Virus record (IMG/VR): IMGVR_UViG_2713897054_000020
Reading direction: 5' to 3' (one strand)
From: a virus
Taxonomy: Duplodnaviria > Heunggongvirae > Uroviricota > Caudoviricetes
Length of the DNA stretch: 9,715 bases
A program made the translations under genes and the position numbers. The notes under the pieces are model-generated. The model saw only the letters and a list, made by a program, of their open reading frames with translations, was not told where the DNA came from and ran no database searches. Below are positions 318-8,144 of this stretch, piece by piece (positions within the stretch are counted from its first letter, which is position 1; each line of letters opens with the position of its first letter).

Positions 318-520
318 GGTCCTTCCTGGAATTATGGCCCGTTACGGGGCGGCGACCTCGCGGTTTTTATCTGTTTATGAAAATTTTCCGGCAAAAGTCA
401 GATCCGTTCTTCTTCTCTGTAACAGACTGTTTAAAAATGAAAATATTAAAAAAAGAAAGGATCTGACACGAGGCATTTTAGCCAGAAAATGTCATTATCA
501 GATCCTTTCTCATTTTTGTT
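318..520 (+). other. lambda-type cohesive-end site (cos-1): cosN core plus cosB-like R-site array
   Basis: 339-363 CCGTTACGGGGCGGCGACCTCGCGG matches the lambda cosN region as I recall it (12-nt cohesive end GGGCGGCGACCT = 347-358), followed by TTTATGAAAATTTTCCGG as in lambda. Downstream are three copies of an 8-mer, TCAGATCC at 398-405, inverted GGATCTGA at 459-466 and TCAGATCC at 498-505, with an A-rich tract between them (about 430-455), mirroring the lambda R3-I1-R2-R1 layout. Confidence 0.75.
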
Positions 521-1080: not shown

Positions 1081-1187
1081 TAATACACCAACTTAATTAC
1101 TGCTTCAGGTTGGTGTATTGCTTGCATCTTTCCCTTTTTATTCATAAAGATAGAGCAAACAACAAAACCACCACCACCACCCTGAAA

Positions 1188-1254
1188 AAGCTCATAAATA
1201 GCGAAAAACCGCGAGGTCGCCGCCCCGTAACGGTCCATATGCCGGAAAGGACCC
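1188..1254 (-). other. second cos-like site (cos-2), inverted relative to cos-1, upstream of the rpp-like gene
   Basis: 1209-1233 CCGCGAGGTCGCCGCCCCGTAACGG is the exact reverse complement of the cos-1 cosN 25-mer. About 65 bp is shared with cos-1 at roughly 85 percent identity, including the flank TTTTTCGCTATTTATGA on the minus strand, which matches lambda. Read on the minus strand the order is cosN, a cosB-like region, then the terminase-homologue gene, i.e. the lambda arrangement. Confidence 0.65.
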
Positions 1255-1284: not shown

Positions 1285-1698
1285 TCAGATGGTTTTCAGT
1301 ATGCGATCGATGTCGCCGTCATCGCCCGGGTTTCTGCCATCGTATGCCATGCCAGCTGATACGGCTTGCGGGCTGTGCATGTCCATAAAGTTTTCAAAGG
1401 CTGCGGTAAGCTCCGGCGCAACCCTCGGACGTTCCTGCTCTATGGTCATGCTAAGGATGCTTTTAGCCGTACCAACATCGATACAAGGCACGTTTGCCAT
1501 TGCACGTAACAGCGGCTGATAGTCGCCAGATTCATCAAGCGCCATAATCGCATCAGCGCGCGGCTTGTCCTGCTCTTCCAGTTTGTTAAGTTGATATATG
1601 GCCTCGTAGGTTGATAACCCTCTGTCAGCCATTGCCCGCGCTTCGGCTTTAAATTTACTCGCCAGCGGTAGCGTCATGATGCTTTCATTCGTTGCCAT
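1285..1698 (-). CDS. hypothetical protein (137 aa), last gene of the capsid operon; possibly an assembly or scaffold-type factor
   Basis: Minus-strand ORF, ATG at 1698-1696, 12-nt gap after the gpD-like gene with a G-rich SD. Acidic, Ala-rich, predicted helical. No motif recognised; the scaffold suggestion rests on position only. Confidence 0.55.
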   Translation of the reverse strand: MATNESIMTLPLASKFKAEARAMADRGLSTYEAIYQLNKLEEQDKPRADAIMALDESGDYQPLLRAMANVPCIDVGTAKSILSMTIEQERPRVAPELTAAFENFMDMHSPQAVSAGMAYDGRNPGDDGDIDRILKTI

Positions 1699-1710
1699 CG
1701 TTCCCCCTGC

Positions 1711-2046
1711 TTATCGGGCCAGCGGCTGAACGGATACGCCAGAACCCGCAAAGGCGGCGCATTTTTTCGCATCGGTGTCGACGCTCTCAGGCCAGTTAAC
1801 GGCGGCAATATTGAATATCCCCGTCTTGTAACACTGTGCTGATTTCTGCTTTGACGTGTCCACAGGATACGAAGTCAGATAAACAGCCTTGCCAGATTCC
1901 TGACCATCCCACGGCTTAAACTCGCCATTGTCCGCCAGCATCAGCGGGGTAAATTCCTGAATAACGCCAGCATCAGCGGCAAAATGTACCAGCGTCGTGG
2001 CGACCTGCTGACTGCCTGCGAATAACTCAATGTATGGAGTGTCCAT
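1711..2046 (-). CDS. head decoration protein, lambda gpD homologue
   Basis: 111 aa, about the size of gpD (110 aa). Blocks TPLMLADNGEFKPWDG and WPESVDTDAKKCAAFAGSGVSV align with gpD TPLMLDTSSRKLVAWDG and [30 protein letters not shown] upstream of ATG 2046-2044. Confidence 0.85.
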   Translation of the reverse strand: MDTPYIELFAGSQQVATTLVHFAADAGVIQEFTPLMLADNGEFKPWDGQESGKAVYLTSYPVDTSKQKSAQCYKTGIFNIAAVNWPESVDTDAKKCAAFAGSGVSVQPLAR

Positions 2047-2057
2047 AGAATCCCCCG

Positions 2058-3113
2058 TTAACCAATTTTGACGGTAACAAATTTGCGAATATCTGCCGGT
2101 ACCGGCTGCGGTGCGCTGTGTGTCTGCACGTACTCAATCGCCGGATCGCCGTCCTCAATCCAGTTTTTCGGGTAGTACATGTTTTGCGTTGCGCCCGTTC
2201 TGACCGCTTCCTGATCCATAATCGCACCATAGGCCACCAGGCCTTTATTGTTGGTGTTACCCAGGACCAGTAAATCAGGCTCAAGGAAATATTTTTCGGT
2301 GCCGTCGCTGTCAGCGTATTTGCCGGAATAGACGATAAGGGCAATATCGCCCAGATAGCCTTTAAAGCTCACCACTTCGCCCAGGTTTTTACAGGCCAGT
2401 TCTGCGGCGGATTCTGAACCACGGGAAAGATCGTACAGCTCACGGAATTTTTTAAAGCTGCGTAACGTGCGCCATACCTCAGCGCCCATAATCATGACGT
2501 TTGCGGGGCAACCAGCCTGATCAGCATAAAGCTCGATGTCATAGATTGGGTCGTGCATCTCTTTATCCTGCTCGGACCATTTTTTACCCTTGGCCTGCTC
2601 TATGATGCAGTTTTCCGGTATTTTCCAGTCTATTTCATAGCGTTCTATGCCTTCGCCCTCAATAATGTTTTTTCCGGTCGTTATCGCATTCACCGCTAGC
2701 CATTCCACGCGCGCTTTAATGGCGTTTACCTGGCGGCGCATGTTGCCAGTAATCAGGCGCATACGTCGGTAGGTAGGGTCGTTAAGCTGTGCCGGATCTT
2801 CTCCAGCCATGCGCATGATGGTTTTTGTTGGATCGATTTCGTGCTTTGGCTTCATGTAGCCAGGTTTAATCGTGCTGGTTTCGTATCCTTTATCGCGCTG
2901 TACCTGGCTGCCAACCATAGGCGAACAAAACGCCGACATGGTGACTTCTTCAATGTCCAGGGTATCCAGCATGATGTTTTGGGTGCTGAATGTCGCCACG
3001 TTCGGGAAAAACAGCGTGGTAAACAGCGGACTGAATTTAAATTCCGCAATATCCCCGCGATTCAGGTACGCAAAAAGCTGGTTAGTGTTAAGTGCCGTTG
3101 CTTTGCCTGCCAT
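2058..3113 (-). CDS. major capsid protein, lambda gpE family
   Basis: 351 aa versus gpE 341 aa. Conserved blocks run across the whole length: EFKFSPLF, PGYMKPKHEIDP, EDPAQLNDPTYRRMR, KGYLGDIALIVYSGKY, LVLGNTNNKGLVAYGAIMD and YPKNWIEDGDPA, against gpE KFKFDPLF, PGYVKPKHEVNP, EDPQNLADPAYRRRR, KGMYGDVAIVVYSGQY, MVLGNTQARGLRTYGCIQD and YPKNWVTTGDPA. The start overlaps the upstream stop (TAATG). Confidence 0.9.
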   Translation of the reverse strand: MAGKATALNTNQLFAYLNRGDIAEFKFSPLFTTLFFPNVATFSTQNIMLDTLDIEEVTMSAFCSPMVGSQVQRDKGYETSTIKPGYMKPKHEIDPTKTIMRMAGEDPAQLNDPTYRRMRLITGNMRRQVNAIKARVEWLAVNAITTGKNIIEGEGIERYEIDWKIPENCIIEQAKGKKWSEQDKEMHDPIYDIELYADQAGCPANVMIMGAEVWRTLRSFKKFRELYDLSRGSESAAELACKNLGEVVSFKGYLGDIALIVYSGKYADSDGTEKYFLEPDLLVLGNTNNKGLVAYGAIMDQEAVRTGATQNMYYPKNWIEDGDPAIEYVQTHSAPQPVPADIRKFVTVKIG

Positions 3114-3319
3114 TATTCACCCCCATAATTTTTATGCATCCCAAGCGCCGCAAGTAAATAAGAGCGCACAAGTGAACCTATCGACGGCTCCGGCGTCATC
3201 AGCGGATCCAGTCCAGCCGCTACGCCAGCCTCATAGTTTTTTTTGTGGCGCTGCTTGAGCACCTCCACGATTTCGGGGCTTATGTACACCGAAACACCGC
3301 CTTTTTTCTCTTCTGCCAT
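3113..3319 (-). CDS. hypothetical protein (68 aa), first gene of the capsid operon
   Basis: Minus-strand ORF with SD AAGAGGAA upstream of ATG 3319-3317. Its stop overlaps the start of the gpE-like gene by one nucleotide, which implies translational coupling. No motif recognised. Confidence 0.5.
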   Translation of the reverse strand: MAEEKKGGVSVYISPEIVEVLKQRHKKNYEAGVAAGLDPLMTPEPSIGSLVRSYLLAALGMHKNYGGE

Positions 3320-3352: not shown

Positions 3353-3403
3353 AACTGGATGTTCATCCAGTTATGATTATAATCATGATTGCATTTTGCG
3401 CAA
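3353..3403 (-). promoter_or_regulatory. putative promoter and operator of the capsid operon
   Basis: Minus-strand -35 TTGCGC (3403-3398), 16-nt spacer, -10 TATAAT (3381-3376). The -10 lies inside a perfect 14-bp palindrome ATGATTATAATCAT (3373-3386). A perfect 20-bp palindrome AACTGGATG-TT-CATCCAGTT (3353-3372) covers the predicted start site and early leader. Confidence 0.4.
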
Positions 3404-3480
3404 TAAAATTGAGTTATGTTGCAAATTATGAAATGATTTACAGCAACAGTAGTCACCATGCTGTTAACCTCGTAAGCAAA

Positions 3481-3520
3481 AGCCCGATAAGCTTCCTCCT
3501 GTACTTATCGGGCTTTTTTT
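3481..3520 (+). terminator. strong intrinsic terminator, plus-strand oriented and possibly bidirectional
   Basis: Stem AGCCCGATAAG (3481-3491) pairs with CTTATCGGGCT (3504-3514) around a 12-nt loop CTTCCTCCTGTA, followed by a T7 run (3514-3520). On the minus strand it is followed by only UUUUGCUU. Confidence 0.55.
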
Positions 3521-3524
3521 GGGT

Positions 3525-3548
3525 ACAAAAAGCCGGATTTTCTCCGGC
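3525..3548 (-). terminator. rho-independent terminator after ssb
   Basis: Stem GCCGGA (3532-3537) pairs with TCCGGC (3543-3548), with an A-run at 3527-3531 giving a U-tail on the minus strand. Almost identical in sequence to the terminator at 1257-1279. Lies directly after the SSB stop (3557). Confidence 0.6.
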
Positions 3549-3556
3549 CTGTGCGT

Positions 3557-3967
3557 TCAGAACGGAATATCATCACCGTAGGGGTCATCGTCTCCCGCTG
3601 GTGGCTGATTACCCTGTGCGCCTGTGGTTTTGCGTCTGTTCCCGCCAGGACGTGCCGCACGGGCACTGATTACGCTGTCTGCAATAACCTGATAACCCTG
3701 CCGCGTTTCCCCGTTCTGTCCGGTCCACTGGCTTATCTGCATCACGCCAGATATGCTGGCAACGTCGCCTTTTTGATGTTTAGCCAGGAAGTCGGCCTGC
3801 TTACCAAATGCCATCACCGATAGCCATAACGTAGCCGTTCCGTCATCTGCCTGGCTGCACGGAAGGGGGACCGCCATACGAGCCAGCGTCATTGGTGTGC
3901 CCTTGCTGGTCTGTTTTACCTGCGGGTCGTCCACCAGCCGCCCGTAAGCGGCTATCTGTGCCGTCAT
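3557..3967 (-). CDS. ssb: single-stranded DNA-binding protein
   Basis: 136 aa. OB-fold core blocks GRLVDDPQ and WLSVMAFGKQADFLAKHQKGDVASISG parallel E. coli SSB GNLGQDPE and [28 protein letters not shown]. Gly/Pro-rich linker and an acidic C-terminal tail ending DDIPF, as in SSB. The ATG overlaps the upstream stop (ATGA). Confidence 0.85.
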   Translation of the reverse strand: MTAQIAAYGRLVDDPQVKQTSKGTPMTLARMAVPLPCSQADDGTATLWLSVMAFGKQADFLAKHQKGDVASISGVMQISQWTGQNGETRQGYQVIADSVISARAARPGGNRRKTTGAQGNQPPAGDDDPYGDDIPF

Positions 3968-4233: not shown

Positions 4234-4420
4234 TTTTGCGCCTCACTTTTTAAAGAGTCTCGCTTCGTCTCACTTGATATTTTTGATGTTTTTATGTGCA
4301 TGTTTCATAAGGATTTTTTTACTCCTCACTTTTTGGGGTATATATACGTTGAAAAGTGAGGAGTTCAGGGGGTTTTTCGTTCAATTACTCATTGTCCTCA
4401 CTTTTGCGCCTCACTTTTTA
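4229..4420. repeat. putative replication origin: iteron array with an AT-rich inverted-repeat core
   Basis: Two perfect 24-bp direct repeats CTCACTTTTGCGCCTCACTTTTTA at 4229-4252 and 4397-4420. The sub-motif CTCACTT(TT) occurs at least six times on the plus strand and once inverted. A 12-bp inverted repeat CTCCTCACTTTT (4322-4333) / AAAAGTGAGGAG (4351-4362) flanks the AT-rich spacer TGGGGTATATATACGTTG. Sits immediately 3' of the replication helicase gene. Confidence 0.6.
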
Positions 4421-6858: not shown

Positions 6859-7095
6859 AACCGGACGGGCAACGGCTACGCGCTTCGCGTTCCGTCCAGG
6901 CGGTTACGTGGATGATTTGAGATTCTCCGGCACTCAGTGCCAGAAAACGCCACACAAAGGCCGTTTGTGTGTGTACAAGGTGTGGTATATGATTTACAGC
7001 AACCATAACGGCTCCTAGTTTACGTTGTTGGTTAGAAGCCCCGTTACTGCTCCTACAGTGCGGGGTTTCGTCGTTTCTACACCTTGCCTTAATAA

Positions 7096-7148
7096 GGTGT
7101 TGAACACCAATTTAAATCGAGGTGTTAAACACGTCAAGTGTTGAACAC
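7096..7148. promoter_or_regulatory. operator array: three copies of a palindromic site GTGTT(G/A)AACAC
   Basis: GTGTTGAACAC at 7097-7107, GTGTTAAACAC at 7122-7132 and GTGTTGAACAC at 7138-7148. The third overlaps a putative plus-strand -35 TTGAAC (7141-7146); a -10 candidate CATACT lies at 7164-7169. The array sits between the divergent leftward operon and the RHH gene. Confidence 0.55.
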
Positions 7149-7198
7149 TTATTTTTTTTCCTGCATACTGCATTTGTTTTTTATGAGGGGTGCTCAAC

Positions 7199-8108: not shown

Positions 8109-8133
8109 ATAAAAAAAGCGGCATTTCTGCCGC
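8109..8133 (-). terminator. rho-independent terminator
   Basis: Stem GCGGCA (8118-8123) pairs with TGCCGC (8128-8133) around loop TTTC, with an A9 run at 8109-8117 giving a U-tail on the minus strand. Lies directly after the stop of the 83-aa ORF (8145). Confidence 0.6.
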
Positions 8134-8144
8134 TTTCAGGATTG

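What the first reader, a model, noticed from the sequence alone, without database searches (positions are those of the whole stretch)
3425..3520. Module A: conserved 15-mer followed by a strong plus-strand terminator hairpin, a candidate small RNA next to the capsid promoter
ATGATTTACAGCAAC (3433-3447) is followed 33 nt later by a stem-loop that begins AGCCC and ends CGGGCTTTTTTT. No credible plus-strand protein gene ends here (the only plus ORF reads straight through the terminator), yet the T7 tail makes the terminator clearly plus-strand oriented. The 12-nt loop CTTCCTCCTGTA exposes a CCUCCU tract, which is anti-Shine-Dalgarno-like. A near-identical module occurs at 6981-7069, which argues for function rather than chance.
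Basis: seen in the sequence. Interest (0 to 1): 0.65.

Follow-up and report, generated by a model that had tools for sequence, protein, structure and literature searches.

The report
Candidate small RNA gene in PICI satellite
The hairpin is a real, plus-strand transcription terminator that, together with a conserved promoter just upstream, most likely defines an undescribed ~80-nt small RNA gene beside the capsid-operon promoter of E. coli and Salmonella phage satellites (PICIs); no transcript has been shown and its target is unknown.

Summary
The window is an E. coli phage-inducible chromosomal island (PICI) of the EcCICFT073 family. The finding lies between ssb and the capsid operon, both on the minus strand.

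The sequence features are real. The hairpin at 3478-3517 plus T7 folds at -19.5 kcal/mol (z = -5). ssb has its own minus-strand terminator next door (3527-3552).

About 75 distinct E. coli copies and four Salmonella-type copies keep one layout:
- a conserved block that reads as a sigma-70 promoter (TTGAGT-17-TGaAATGAT);
- a variable 5' hairpin;
- a terminator hairpin with a large C/U-rich loop;
- a U-tail.

In Salmonella the stem sequence is entirely different. The CCUCCU loop is kept, and a U-tail exists only on the window's plus strand. This favours an independent ~78-nt plus-strand sRNA gene (about 0.5-0.7).

The 15-mer is not a conserved RNA motif. It overlaps the predicted -10 and start site, is specific to one allele, and does not co-vary with its second copy. 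"Module B" is not near-identical. It looks like a separate antisense RNA over the icd start codon and SD.

There is no Rfam match and no expression evidence. The best target lead, the orf137 translation start region, is inconclusive.

The parts
3409..3414 (+). Predicted -35 hexamer (TTGAGT) of the small-RNA promoter P1
   Evidence: Read. The TTG is kept in nearly all of 74 distinct regions that were anchored on the LexA-like box rather than on this site (TTGAGT, TTGCTT, TTGATT, TTGAAT). Inference only. The consensus scan does not list it, because the two hexamers together match 8 of 12.
3429..3437 (+). Predicted extended -10 (TG at 3429-3430, AATGAT at 3432-3437), 17-nt spacer from the -35
   Evidence: TG is present in every parsed region. 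The hexamer is AATGAT, AATTAT, AATAAT, AATGGT or AATGTT, always with A at position 2 and T at position 6. E. coli/Salmonella conservation stops just 3' of it.
3433..3447 (+).
   Evidence: It is allele-specific (type II) and has variants ACGGCAAC, CCGGCAAC, GCGGCAAC, CCGGAAAC and CCGACAAC.
3443..3520 (+). Predicted small RNA, about 78 nt. The 5' end is inferred at 6-8 nt after the -10; the 3' end is in the U-run.
   Evidence: Architecture conserved in three sequence types. No Rfam family reaches threshold. No expression data.
3445..3465 (+). 5' hairpin H1 (AACAGUA / UGCUGUU)
   Evidence: One variant changes U.G to U-A (GCTGTT to ACTGTT). Salmonella copies have a different 5-6 bp hairpin at the same place. 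Type I has only a weak one.
3466..3477 (+). Single-stranded linker with a conserved CCUC (AACCUCGUAAGC)
   Evidence: (A/G)CCUC(A/G)UA(U/A)(G/A)C is kept in E. coli types I and II.
3478..3520 (+). Terminator hairpin T2: 14-bp stem, 12-nt loop CUUCCUCCUGUA (3492-3503), U7 tail (3514-3520)
   Evidence: The stem is invariant in E. coli apart from three singleton changes, all in the 5' arm. Salmonella has a wholly different stem (CCCGCCAGCCGUU / GGCGGCUGGCGGG) with loop UUAGCCUCCUCUU.
3527..3552 (-). T1, the minus-strand terminator of ssb (GCCGGAGAAAAUCCGGCUUUUU)
   Evidence: family D3; similar hairpins at 1258-1283 and 8112-8137. It begins 5 nt after the ssb stop at 3557.
3376..3403 (-). Capsid-operon promoter: -35 TTGCGC (3403 to 3398), 16-nt spacer, -10 TATAAT (3381 to 3376), inside the palindrome ATGATTATAATCAT
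   Evidence: Read. Conserved in E. coli and Salmonella. Inference.
3355..3370 (.). LexA-box-like palindrome CTGGATGTTCATCCAG (CTG-N10-CAG) just downstream of the capsid -10
   Evidence: (I25). Salmonella reads TACTGGATTTTCATCCAGT. CTGT variants occur. LexA binding was not tested.
6965..7075 (+). Module B: promoter-like TTGTGT (6965-6970)-17-TATGAT (6988-6993), then an RNA antisense to the icd start codon (7004-7006) and SD (about 7013-7017), ending at hairpin 7035-7069 plus UUUCGUCGUUUC
   Evidence: Seven hairpin pairs show compensatory changes. There are 2-5 G.U pairs on the plus strand against 0-1 on the minus strand. Folding energy is -22 to -31 kcal/mol on plus against -14 to -19 on minus.
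1701..1720 (-). Candidate target: gpD-like stop / orf137 SD, GGCCCGAUAAG-CAGGGGGAA, complementary to the sRNA 3' arm plus loop
   Evidence: One search found an 11-bp helix. An adjacent 9-bp helix with a 2-nt bulge was read by eye. Weakened.

Best explanation
Positions 3409-3520 carry an independent plus-strand small-RNA gene of the PICI. It is divergent, back-to-back, from the capsid-operon promoter and convergent with ssb.

A sigma-70 promoter (TTGAGT-17-TGaAATGAT) would start transcription near 3443. The hairpin plus U7 tail would end it at about 3520. The product is an RNA of about 78 nt: a short 5' hairpin, an A-rich linker with CCUC, and a terminator whose unusually large loop exposes a C/U-rich tract.

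Inferred mechanism (not shown): the RNA acts in trans by base-pairing through the loop, and perhaps the linker, with purine-rich Shine-Dalgarno regions. This would lower translation of island mRNAs, or of helper-phage mRNAs. Most genes of this island have G-run SDs.

The best single lead is the start region of orf137, a scaffold-like gene of the capsid operon. There, 10 nt match the 3' arm and 7-9 nt match the loop.

What is shown: the hairpin, its strand asymmetry, and conservation of the layout across sequence types. What is inferred: the promoter, the transcript, any Hfq involvement and the target.
For: - Two adjacent terminators of opposite polarity are what convergent transcription units show. 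T1 serves ssb on the minus strand; T2 has a T7 tail on the plus strand.
- The T6-7 tail travels with T2 when the downstream context changes, including a ~170-nt insertion between T2 and T1.
- Salmonella-type PICIs (L130-L133, and L138 from an unclassified sequencing-run assembly) keep the same promoter block. They have a different 5' hairpin and a terminator with a fully replaced stem. The loop is still AGCCUCCUCUU, and the U-rich tail (UUUUCUUUU) is on this strand only; the minus strand reads GGUGGUUAUGCC after the stem.
- The promoter elements are conserved in 74 distinct regions that were not selected on them. TG and the -10 positions A2 and T6 are present in every region parsed; the -35 TTG is kept in nearly all.
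- E. coli/Salmonella sequence conservation ends at the -10.
- No ORF is conserved on either strand. The minus-strand ORFs differ in frame between types.
- The region is found in 620 of 5426 complete E. coli genomes.
- Complementarity to the orf137 start region. Loop variants CCUCCUG, CCCUCUG and CCCCCUG all pair with CAGGGGG.
- All three singleton stem changes are in the 5' arm, which would not pair with that target.
Against: - There is no transcript evidence. The Hfq-CRAC list of orphan sRNAs in O157 Sakai has nothing inside Sp7 (1,594,711-1,610,171), which is the same island family.
- The promoter hexamers match 8 of 12, below the scan threshold.
- The transcribed body is poorly conserved between types, as expected for a spacer.
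- In E. coli the stem has only Watson-Crick pairs, apart from one singleton G.U variant, and folds equally well on both strands. A UUUU follows it on the minus strand, so it could also work in that direction.
- Target support is weak. About 35-40% of elements have GCG instead of GCC in the target, with no compensating change in the RNA.
- Salmonella islands have no orf137 and no comparable site.
- Once the cost of opening the terminator is counted, the net cofold energy for orf137 (-6.3 kcal/mol) is unexceptional among the 16 start regions tested (-11.2 to -0.8).
Confidence: 0.55

Rival explanations
1. T2 is only an insulator. The perfectly symmetric -10 (GATTATAATC) of the capsid promoter, and/or P1, fires divergently. 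The hairpin stops this by-product transcript before it runs antisense into ssb. The RNA itself has no function.
For: TATAAT reads on both strands at 3376-3383. The RNA body differs strongly between types I, II and III. No conserved target was found. No Hfq peak is reported in Sakai Sp7. That symmetric -10 elements give divergent transcription is my recollection of published work, not checked here.
Against: A simple insulator needs neither an 11-13 nt loop nor a C/U-rich loop, yet both survive complete replacement of the stem in Salmonella. A 5' hairpin recurs in types II and III, with different sequences (weak in type I). The CCUC linker is conserved in E. coli.
Confidence: 0.25
2. T2 is a second, back-up minus-strand or bidirectional terminator for the replication operon (ssb, perC). 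It shields the capsid promoter from read-through.
For: On the minus strand the E. coli hairpin is equally stable and is followed by UUUUGC(U/A)UA. It lies directly downstream of T1.
Against: T1 already has a GC stem plus U5. The T-run is 6-7 on the plus strand against 4 on the minus strand in all E. coli copies. The Salmonella counterpart has no U-tract on the minus strand and has U.G pairs that become A.C mismatches there.
Confidence: 0.1
3. The module is a minus-strand feature. It would be a leader with an SD-presenting loop (AGGAGG) and a small ORF (MVTTVAVNH..., 36 codons) whose first codons duplicate the icd start. That would explain the shared 15-mer.
For: On the minus strand the sequence reads GAGG-N8-ATG GTG ACT ACT GTT GCT GTA AAT CAT, and icd begins ATG GTT GCT GTA AAT CAT. 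Two 15-mer variants are synonymous in that frame.
Against: The ORF is not conserved. Type I gives a 7-codon ORF, and Salmonella uses another frame across the conserved block. The ORF runs through the capsid promoter. Two terminators lie immediately upstream and no minus-strand promoter precedes it.
Confidence: 0.04
4. The hairpin acts as a DNA-level palindrome: a protein-binding site, recombination site or packaging site.
For: It sits at a mosaic junction where downstream sequence is exchanged. The arms are perfect inverted repeats.
Against: In Salmonella the arm sequences are replaced while pairing, loop content and U-tail are kept. That fits RNA structure, not a protein recognition sequence. 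The lambdoid cos-like sites lie elsewhere, at 333-391 and 1181-1239.
Confidence: 0.04

Closest known systems
SviR, the trans-acting sRNA of the Vibrio cholerae satellite PLE (bioRxiv 10.1101/2022.04.08.487710)
   Same: A small RNA encoded by a phage satellite and conserved across the satellite family. It is reported to regulate both satellite and helper-phage genes, including a putative structural protein.
   Different: No sequence or Rfam relationship. The host, satellite family and helper differ. SviR is experimentally shown; this RNA is only predicted, and its target is unknown.
Rhizobial alpha-r14 family sRNAs with CCUCCUCC anti-SD loops (Rfam RF02344 ar14)
   Same: The best weak Rfam resemblance. 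The match includes a terminator hairpin whose loop carries a CCUCC tract (alignment). That these RNAs use such loops to bind SD regions is my recollection.
   Different: Score 21.0 bits against a gathering score of 58.8, so it is not a member. Unrelated taxa. The resemblance is one of working principle only.
Short prophage-encoded Hfq-binding sRNAs of EHEC (AgvB, AsxR and other EcOnc RNAs; PMC4104026)
   Same: Small, terminator-ended RNAs on mobile elements of pathogenic E. coli, with a conserved 3' part and a variable 5' part. That paper maps one interaction (AsxR-FnrS) to a terminator loop.
   Different: AgvB model score is 18 bits against a gathering score of 56. Those RNAs lie at the lambdoid PR' moron site. 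No EcOnc entry lies in Sakai Sp7.
P1/P7 C4, P4 CI and IsrK immunity RNAs next to icd-like genes (from my own knowledge)
   Same: Small RNAs of phages and satellites associated with icd-like genes. Regulator and target share repeated sequence.
   Different: Those RNAs are on the same strand as icd and are processed from the operon leader. Here both candidate RNAs are on the opposite strand with their own terminators. No C4 or IsrK hit appears even at E <= 10 on the short stretches.
Phage cis-antisense RNAs such as lambda oop and P22 sar (from my own knowledge)
   Same: Size of about 70-80 nt, own promoter, intrinsic terminator, located in a regulatory region. Module B fits this type: it is antisense to the icd SD and AUG.
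   Different: Module A is not antisense to any conserved gene, so it would have to act in trans.

Membership tests
Intrinsic (Rho-independent) terminator, plus strand | Stable GC-containing stem-loop | tested here: met
   -19.5 kcal/mol, z = -5.05. Salmonella counterpart -31.7 kcal/mol (L131) and -34.7 (L138).
Intrinsic (Rho-independent) terminator, plus strand | U-tract directly 3' of the stem on the transcribed strand | tested here: met
   T5-T7 in the 43 distinct E. coli and Salmonella-type copies (nearly all T6 or T7). Salmonella has UUUUCUUU(U) on this strand only.
Intrinsic (Rho-independent) terminator, plus strand | Termination in vivo | not testable with these tools
   Needs Term-seq or 3' RACE.
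Trans-acting base-pairing sRNA (Hfq type) | Own promoter | tested here: inconclusive
   TTGAGT-17-TGaAATGAT is conserved but falls below the consensus-scan threshold. No TSS data.
Trans-acting base-pairing sRNA (Hfq type) | Detected transcript or Hfq association | tested here: inconclusive
   Not in the Hfq-CRAC orphan sRNA table for Sakai, which has no entry in Sp7. That is one study, uninduced cultures, and a thresholded list.
Trans-acting base-pairing sRNA (Hfq type) | Conserved seed with a complementary target | tested here: inconclusive
   orf137 start region, 10 + 9 bp. There is no compensation for the GCC/GCG polymorphism, the site is absent in Salmonella, and the net energy is ordinary.
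Any Rfam 15 family (ar14, AgvB, RybB, C4, IsrK and others) | Score at or above the family gathering threshold | tested here: not met
   Best hits are ar14 at 21.0 against 58.8, EF3314_EF3315 at 20.1 against 100, and AgvB at 18 against 56. Nothing in the whole-window scan.
C4 / CI / IsrK immunity RNA | Same strand as, and upstream of, the icd-like gene it controls | tested here: not met
   The module A and B hairpins have their U-tails and G.U pairs on the strand opposite to icd.
Cis-antisense RNA | Overlaps a conserved gene on the opposite strand | tested here: not met
   No conserved minus-strand ORF under 3443-3520. Met for module B, which covers the icd AUG and SD.
EcCICFT073-type PICI (the host element) | int, AlpA-like regulator, replication module (RepA-family helicase here, P4-type primase in CFT073) with ori iterons, packaging module, about 10 kb, at a tRNA | tested here: met
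   Annotation of the same island in STEC2017-197 beside tRNA-Pro. Same gene order as CFT073. Iterons at 4234-4419. Nu1-like TerS, and an AlpA hit that is weak (17.9 bits, below Pfam's 21-bit cut-off). Rpp in CFT073 matches RppC 6HLK.
LexA (SOS) box at the capsid promoter | CTG-N10-CAG palindrome close to TACTG(TA)5CAGTA, overlapping the promoter | tested here: met
   CTGGATGTTCATCCAG at 3355-3370. Salmonella reads TACTGGATTTTCATCCAGT (14 of 20 to consensus by my count). Conserved in 74 regions. LexA binding is not testable here.

The most novel reading that the evidence does not exclude
The island encodes a riboregulator whose terminator loop (C/U-rich) and 3' arm pair with the G-run Shine-Dalgarno regions of its own morphogenesis genes. 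The clearest case is the scaffold-like orf137 at the gpD-stop/SD junction. It might also pair with a helper transcript: a 14-bp match lies 36-49 nt into lambda Q. Together with the LexA-like box, the RNA would time satellite capsid production or interfere with helper late-gene expression. A second RNA, module B, would silence the icd-like gene. This would make RNA control a general layer of PICI biology.
Probability: 0.15. Interest if true: 0.7.

Novelty: new member of a known kind. Interest (0 to 1): 0.45.

Why it matters
Gram-negative PICIs are described as controlled by AlpA and by helper-phage induction. The papers I read on EcCICFT073 mention no small RNA, no terminator at this position and no LexA control of the capsid operon.

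If real, a conserved sRNA gene beside a LexA-boxed capsid promoter would add a post-transcriptional layer to satellite-helper conflict. It is present in about 11% of complete E. coli genomes, including CFT073, Nissle 1917 and O157:H7. So far only the Vibrio PLE (SviR) has such a layer reported.

The idea is cheap to test: a Northern blot, or re-mapping of existing stranded RNA-seq. These islands are also being engineered as delivery vehicles, so an unannotated regulator next to the packaging operon matters in practice.

Tried and rejected
- **Rfam.** Whole window at E <= 1 and both modules at E <= 10 gave only sub-threshold chance-level hits.
- **15-mer as a co-varying regulator/target pair.** Rejected. 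Type I elements lack it. Several type II elements have no second copy. Where both copies exist their variants do not match (L111, L103, L021).
- **Minus-strand small ORF.** Rejected because the frames are not conserved.
- **Plus-strand small ORFs.** Rejected by reading: MLLTS in the window, a 19-codon ORF in type I that is absent in O157.
- **Known EHEC sRNAs.** Esr41 is in SpLE1. The Pas sRNAs are in lambdoid prophages. No EcOnc entry lies in Sp7.
- **Searches for more distant relatives.**
  - The capsid-protein scan of genome contigs found nothing.
  - The viral and metagenome scans added no new sequence type.
- **Alignment.** MAFFT could not align the Salmonella hairpin in register. No formal pair-count or covariance model was made for module A; the stem comparison was done by eye and with RNAfold.
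- **Target prediction.**
  - Full-length duplex energies were dominated by non-specific GC-rich pairing.
  - Cofold net energies did not single out any start region.
  - The lambda scan gave one 14-bp helix in Q, roughly what chance allows.
- **Locus-tag literature search.** It gave nothing relevant.

Full report
**Context**

The window is a complete phage-inducible chromosomal island (PICI). The 301 bases tested around the finding are 100% identical to E. coli STEC2017-197. There the island lies between yejO and tRNA-Pro and is annotated, all on the minus strand, as:
- integrase, an HTH regulator and an Icd-like protein;
- a RepA-family helicase and SSB;
- a 68-aa protein, a major capsid protein, a head decoration protein, a 137-aa protein, TerS and a 93-aa protein.

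CFT073 carries the same gene order. That island is EcCICFT073, the prototype Gram-negative PICI. O157:H7 carries it too, where it is prophage-like element Sp7 of strain Sakai.

The finding lies in the 237-nt gap between ssb (3557-3967) and the first capsid-operon gene (3113-3319).

**The observation**

- The hairpin is far more stable than shuffled sequence (-19.5 against -7.8 +/- 2.3 kcal/mol).
- The second "module" shares only the 15-mer exactly. The rest aligns at 44 of 78 columns.
- An exact 15-mer repeat arises in about 4% of simulated windows.

**Anatomy of the gap**

Immediately after ssb comes T1 (3527-3552). On the minus strand it reads GCCGGAGAAAAUCCGGCUUUUU, and similar hairpins close other minus-strand units at 1258-1283 and 8112-8137.

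The left side of the gap holds the capsid promoter on the minus strand. It is TTGCGC-16-TATAAT, set inside a 14-bp palindrome. It is followed by CTGGATGTTCATCCAG (3355-3370), which fits the LexA box pattern CTG-N10-CAG.

Between that promoter and T2, on the plus strand, lies TTGAGT (3409-3414), a 17-nt spacer, and TG-A-AATGAT (3429-3437). This is a plausible extended -10 promoter. A start near 3443 would give an RNA of about 78 nt ending in the U-run. The 15-mer therefore mostly covers the -10, the discriminator and the first transcribed bases.

**Comparative evidence**

The region occurs in 620 of 5426 complete E. coli genomes. DNA-pattern scans of viral and metagenome contigs recovered many copies. 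They reduce to 43 distinct sequences of the promoter-to-terminator stretch and 74 distinct regulatory regions.

In E. coli there are two alleles of the 5' part:
- type I: ...ATGATTATCCCGATCATGTGTGTCAGTGCAC...;
- type II: the window's allele.

The T2 stem is invariant except for three singleton changes, all in the 5' arm. The loop varies but stays pyrimidine-rich and ends in UG plus two bases: CCACCUCUGAC, AACCCUCUGAC, AUGCCUCCUGUA, CCCCCUGUGAC.

The T6-7 run is kept even in elements where about 170 nt are inserted between T2 and T1.

The promoter elements are conserved in regions that were selected on the LexA-like box, not on the promoter.

The most informative copies come from four Salmonella-type loci: two S. 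enterica assemblies, one assembly whose organism was not shown, and one unclassified sequencing run. A fifth locus (L133) repeats one of them. They were reached through the 53-55% identical homologues of the 68-aa protein:
- The block from the LexA-like box to AATGATT is about 80% identical to E. coli.
- Downstream of it the sequence is unrelated, but it again forms a 5' hairpin and a terminator.
- The terminator has a completely different stem (CCCGCCAGCCGUU / GGCGGCUGGCGGG, extended by AACCA/UGGUU).
- Its loop is 13 nt, UUAGCCUCCUCUU, and a UUUUCUUUU tail follows.
- On the opposite strand that hairpin is followed by GGUGGUUAUGCC, and its two U.G pairs become mismatches.

So the layout, the loop content and the polarity are conserved while the stem sequence is not. 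No ORF on either strand is conserved across the three types.

**Interpretation**

The simplest reading is a plus-strand small-RNA gene, convergent with ssb and divergent from the capsid promoter. I put its existence at about 0.6-0.7. I put the full statement, including action in trans by base pairing, at 0.55 or lower.

The main rival is that T2 merely stops divergent by-product transcription from the symmetric -10 or from P1. I give that 0.25. The poor conservation of the RNA body favours it. The conserved large C/U-rich loop argues against it.

A back-up minus-strand terminator role is possible for the E. coli version, but the Salmonella version does not fit.

**Function**

Most genes of the island have G-run SDs, read from the start regions printed: GGGGG upstream of MCP, gpD-like, orf137, orf93 and ssb, and GGGG upstream of repA.

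The longest helix between the predicted RNA and the island's minus-strand transcripts is the 3' arm CUUAUCGGGCU against GGCCCGAUAAG at 1710-1720. That is the stop codon of the gpD-like gene. Directly next to it the loop UUCCUCCUG can pair with CAGGGGGAA, the SD of orf137. Loop variants CCCUCUG and CCCCCUG also fit CAGGGGG.

orf137 matches the C-terminal, scaffold-like part of head maturation proteases (phrog_53).

Four results argue against this target:
- A third or more of elements carry GCG for GCC in the site without compensation.
- Salmonella islands lack orf137 and lack any comparable site.
- An 11-bp perfect helix also occurs inside int.
- Cofold net energies do not single out orf137.

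A scan of lambda found a 14-bp helix in Q, about what chance allows. The target is therefore open.

**Module B**

The second copy of the 15-mer lies at the start of the icd-like gene: ATG GTT GCT GTA AAT CAT on the minus strand.

Across 30 distinct sequences this region has three conserved features:
- a promoter-like -10 on the plus strand, in most copies with an upstream TG (TGgTATGAT or TGgTATAAT);
- a segment antisense to the icd AUG and SD;
- a hairpin with 7 pairs showing compensatory changes, 2-5 G.U pairs on the plus strand, and tails such as GGGGCUUUGCUUUUUU.

It folds 5-12 kcal/mol better on the plus strand. It looks like a cis-antisense RNA to icd. It is a separate unit from module A, which it resembles in architecture and in the promoter/start region. 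It has no Rfam match.

**Known families**

No Rfam family reaches threshold. The closest in working principle are:
- sRNAs with anti-SD loops (ar14 type);
- short prophage sRNAs of EHEC;
- among satellites, SviR of the Vibrio PLE.

The C4/CI/IsrK immunity RNAs that accompany icd-like genes are on the other strand and do not match.

The PICI papers I read do not mention an sRNA, this terminator, or LexA control in Gram-negative PICIs.

**Verdict**

This is a real, conserved, plus-strand terminator, and probably an undescribed small RNA gene of a widespread satellite family. It is of a known kind and has not been detected experimentally. Interest is moderate.

Noticed in passing
window 333-391 (+) and 1181-1239 (-): Two lambdoid cos-like sites lie in inverted orientation and flank the Nu1-like terS gene (538-1080). 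Both contain GGGCGGCGACCT, which I recall as the lambda cohesive end. The arms are 59 nt and 86% complementary. The copy tested (1181-1239) is about 85% identical to the phage 21 cos/terminase-IHF region. In CFT073 an Rpp gene sits in place of terS.
   Followed up: partly
window 3355-3370: A LexA-box-like palindrome, CTGGATGTTCATCCAG, lies just downstream of the capsid-operon -10. It is conserved in E. coli and Salmonella PICIs (TACTGGATTTTCATCCAGT). This suggests SOS control of the capsid operon, as is known for SaPI operon I. The Gram-negative PICI papers I read do not mention it.
   Followed up: partly
window 6965-7075 (+): A probable cis-antisense RNA covers the start codon and SD of the icd-like gene. 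It has its own promoter-like -10, and a terminator hairpin with 7 compensatory pairs and plus-strand G.U pairs. No Rfam family matches.
   Followed up: partly
window 7096-7150: Three copies of the palindrome GTGTT(G/A)AACAC lie around the icd-operon promoter (TTGACG-17-TAAATT, 7137 to 7109), between icd and the divergent YlcI/YnfO-family gene. This looks like an operator array.
   Followed up: no
window 1285-1698 (-): orf137 matches the C-terminal part of head maturation proteases (phrog_53, residues 494-567 of 583). With its lambda E-like capsid and gpD-like decoration genes, the island may therefore also encode a scaffold-like protein.
   Followed up: partly
window, start regions of MCP, gpD-like, orf137, orf93, ssb, repA: The Shine-Dalgarno sequences of the island are mostly G-runs (GGGGG or GGGG) rather than AGGAGG.
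   Followed up: no
L010 5540-5715 and similar loci (L023, L024, L039, L120, L124): Some islands carry a ~170-nt insertion between T2 and T1. It has its own small hairpin plus T-run (GCGCGGAAAAAAGCGCATTTTT on the minus strand) and a CATCATCATCATGAGCG tract. Its function is unknown.
   Followed up: no
L121 and L260 (IMG/VR contigs): These are natural variants in which the T2 hairpin is collapsed by a deletion (GCCCGATAAGACCCTCCGGGC). They may be natural loss-of-function alleles, or assembly errors.
   Followed up: no
window 4234-4419: Three 18-nt iterons (TTTTGCGCCTCACTTTTT, spacing 83-85 nt) lie downstream of the RepA-family helicase gene. This is the likely ori.
   Followed up: no
L341 (lambda) 43921-43934: A 14-bp helix with one G.U pair forms between the invariant 3' arm plus U-tail of the predicted RNA (UUAUCGGGCUUUUU) and codons 12-16 of lambda Q. 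This is roughly what chance allows.
   Followed up: no
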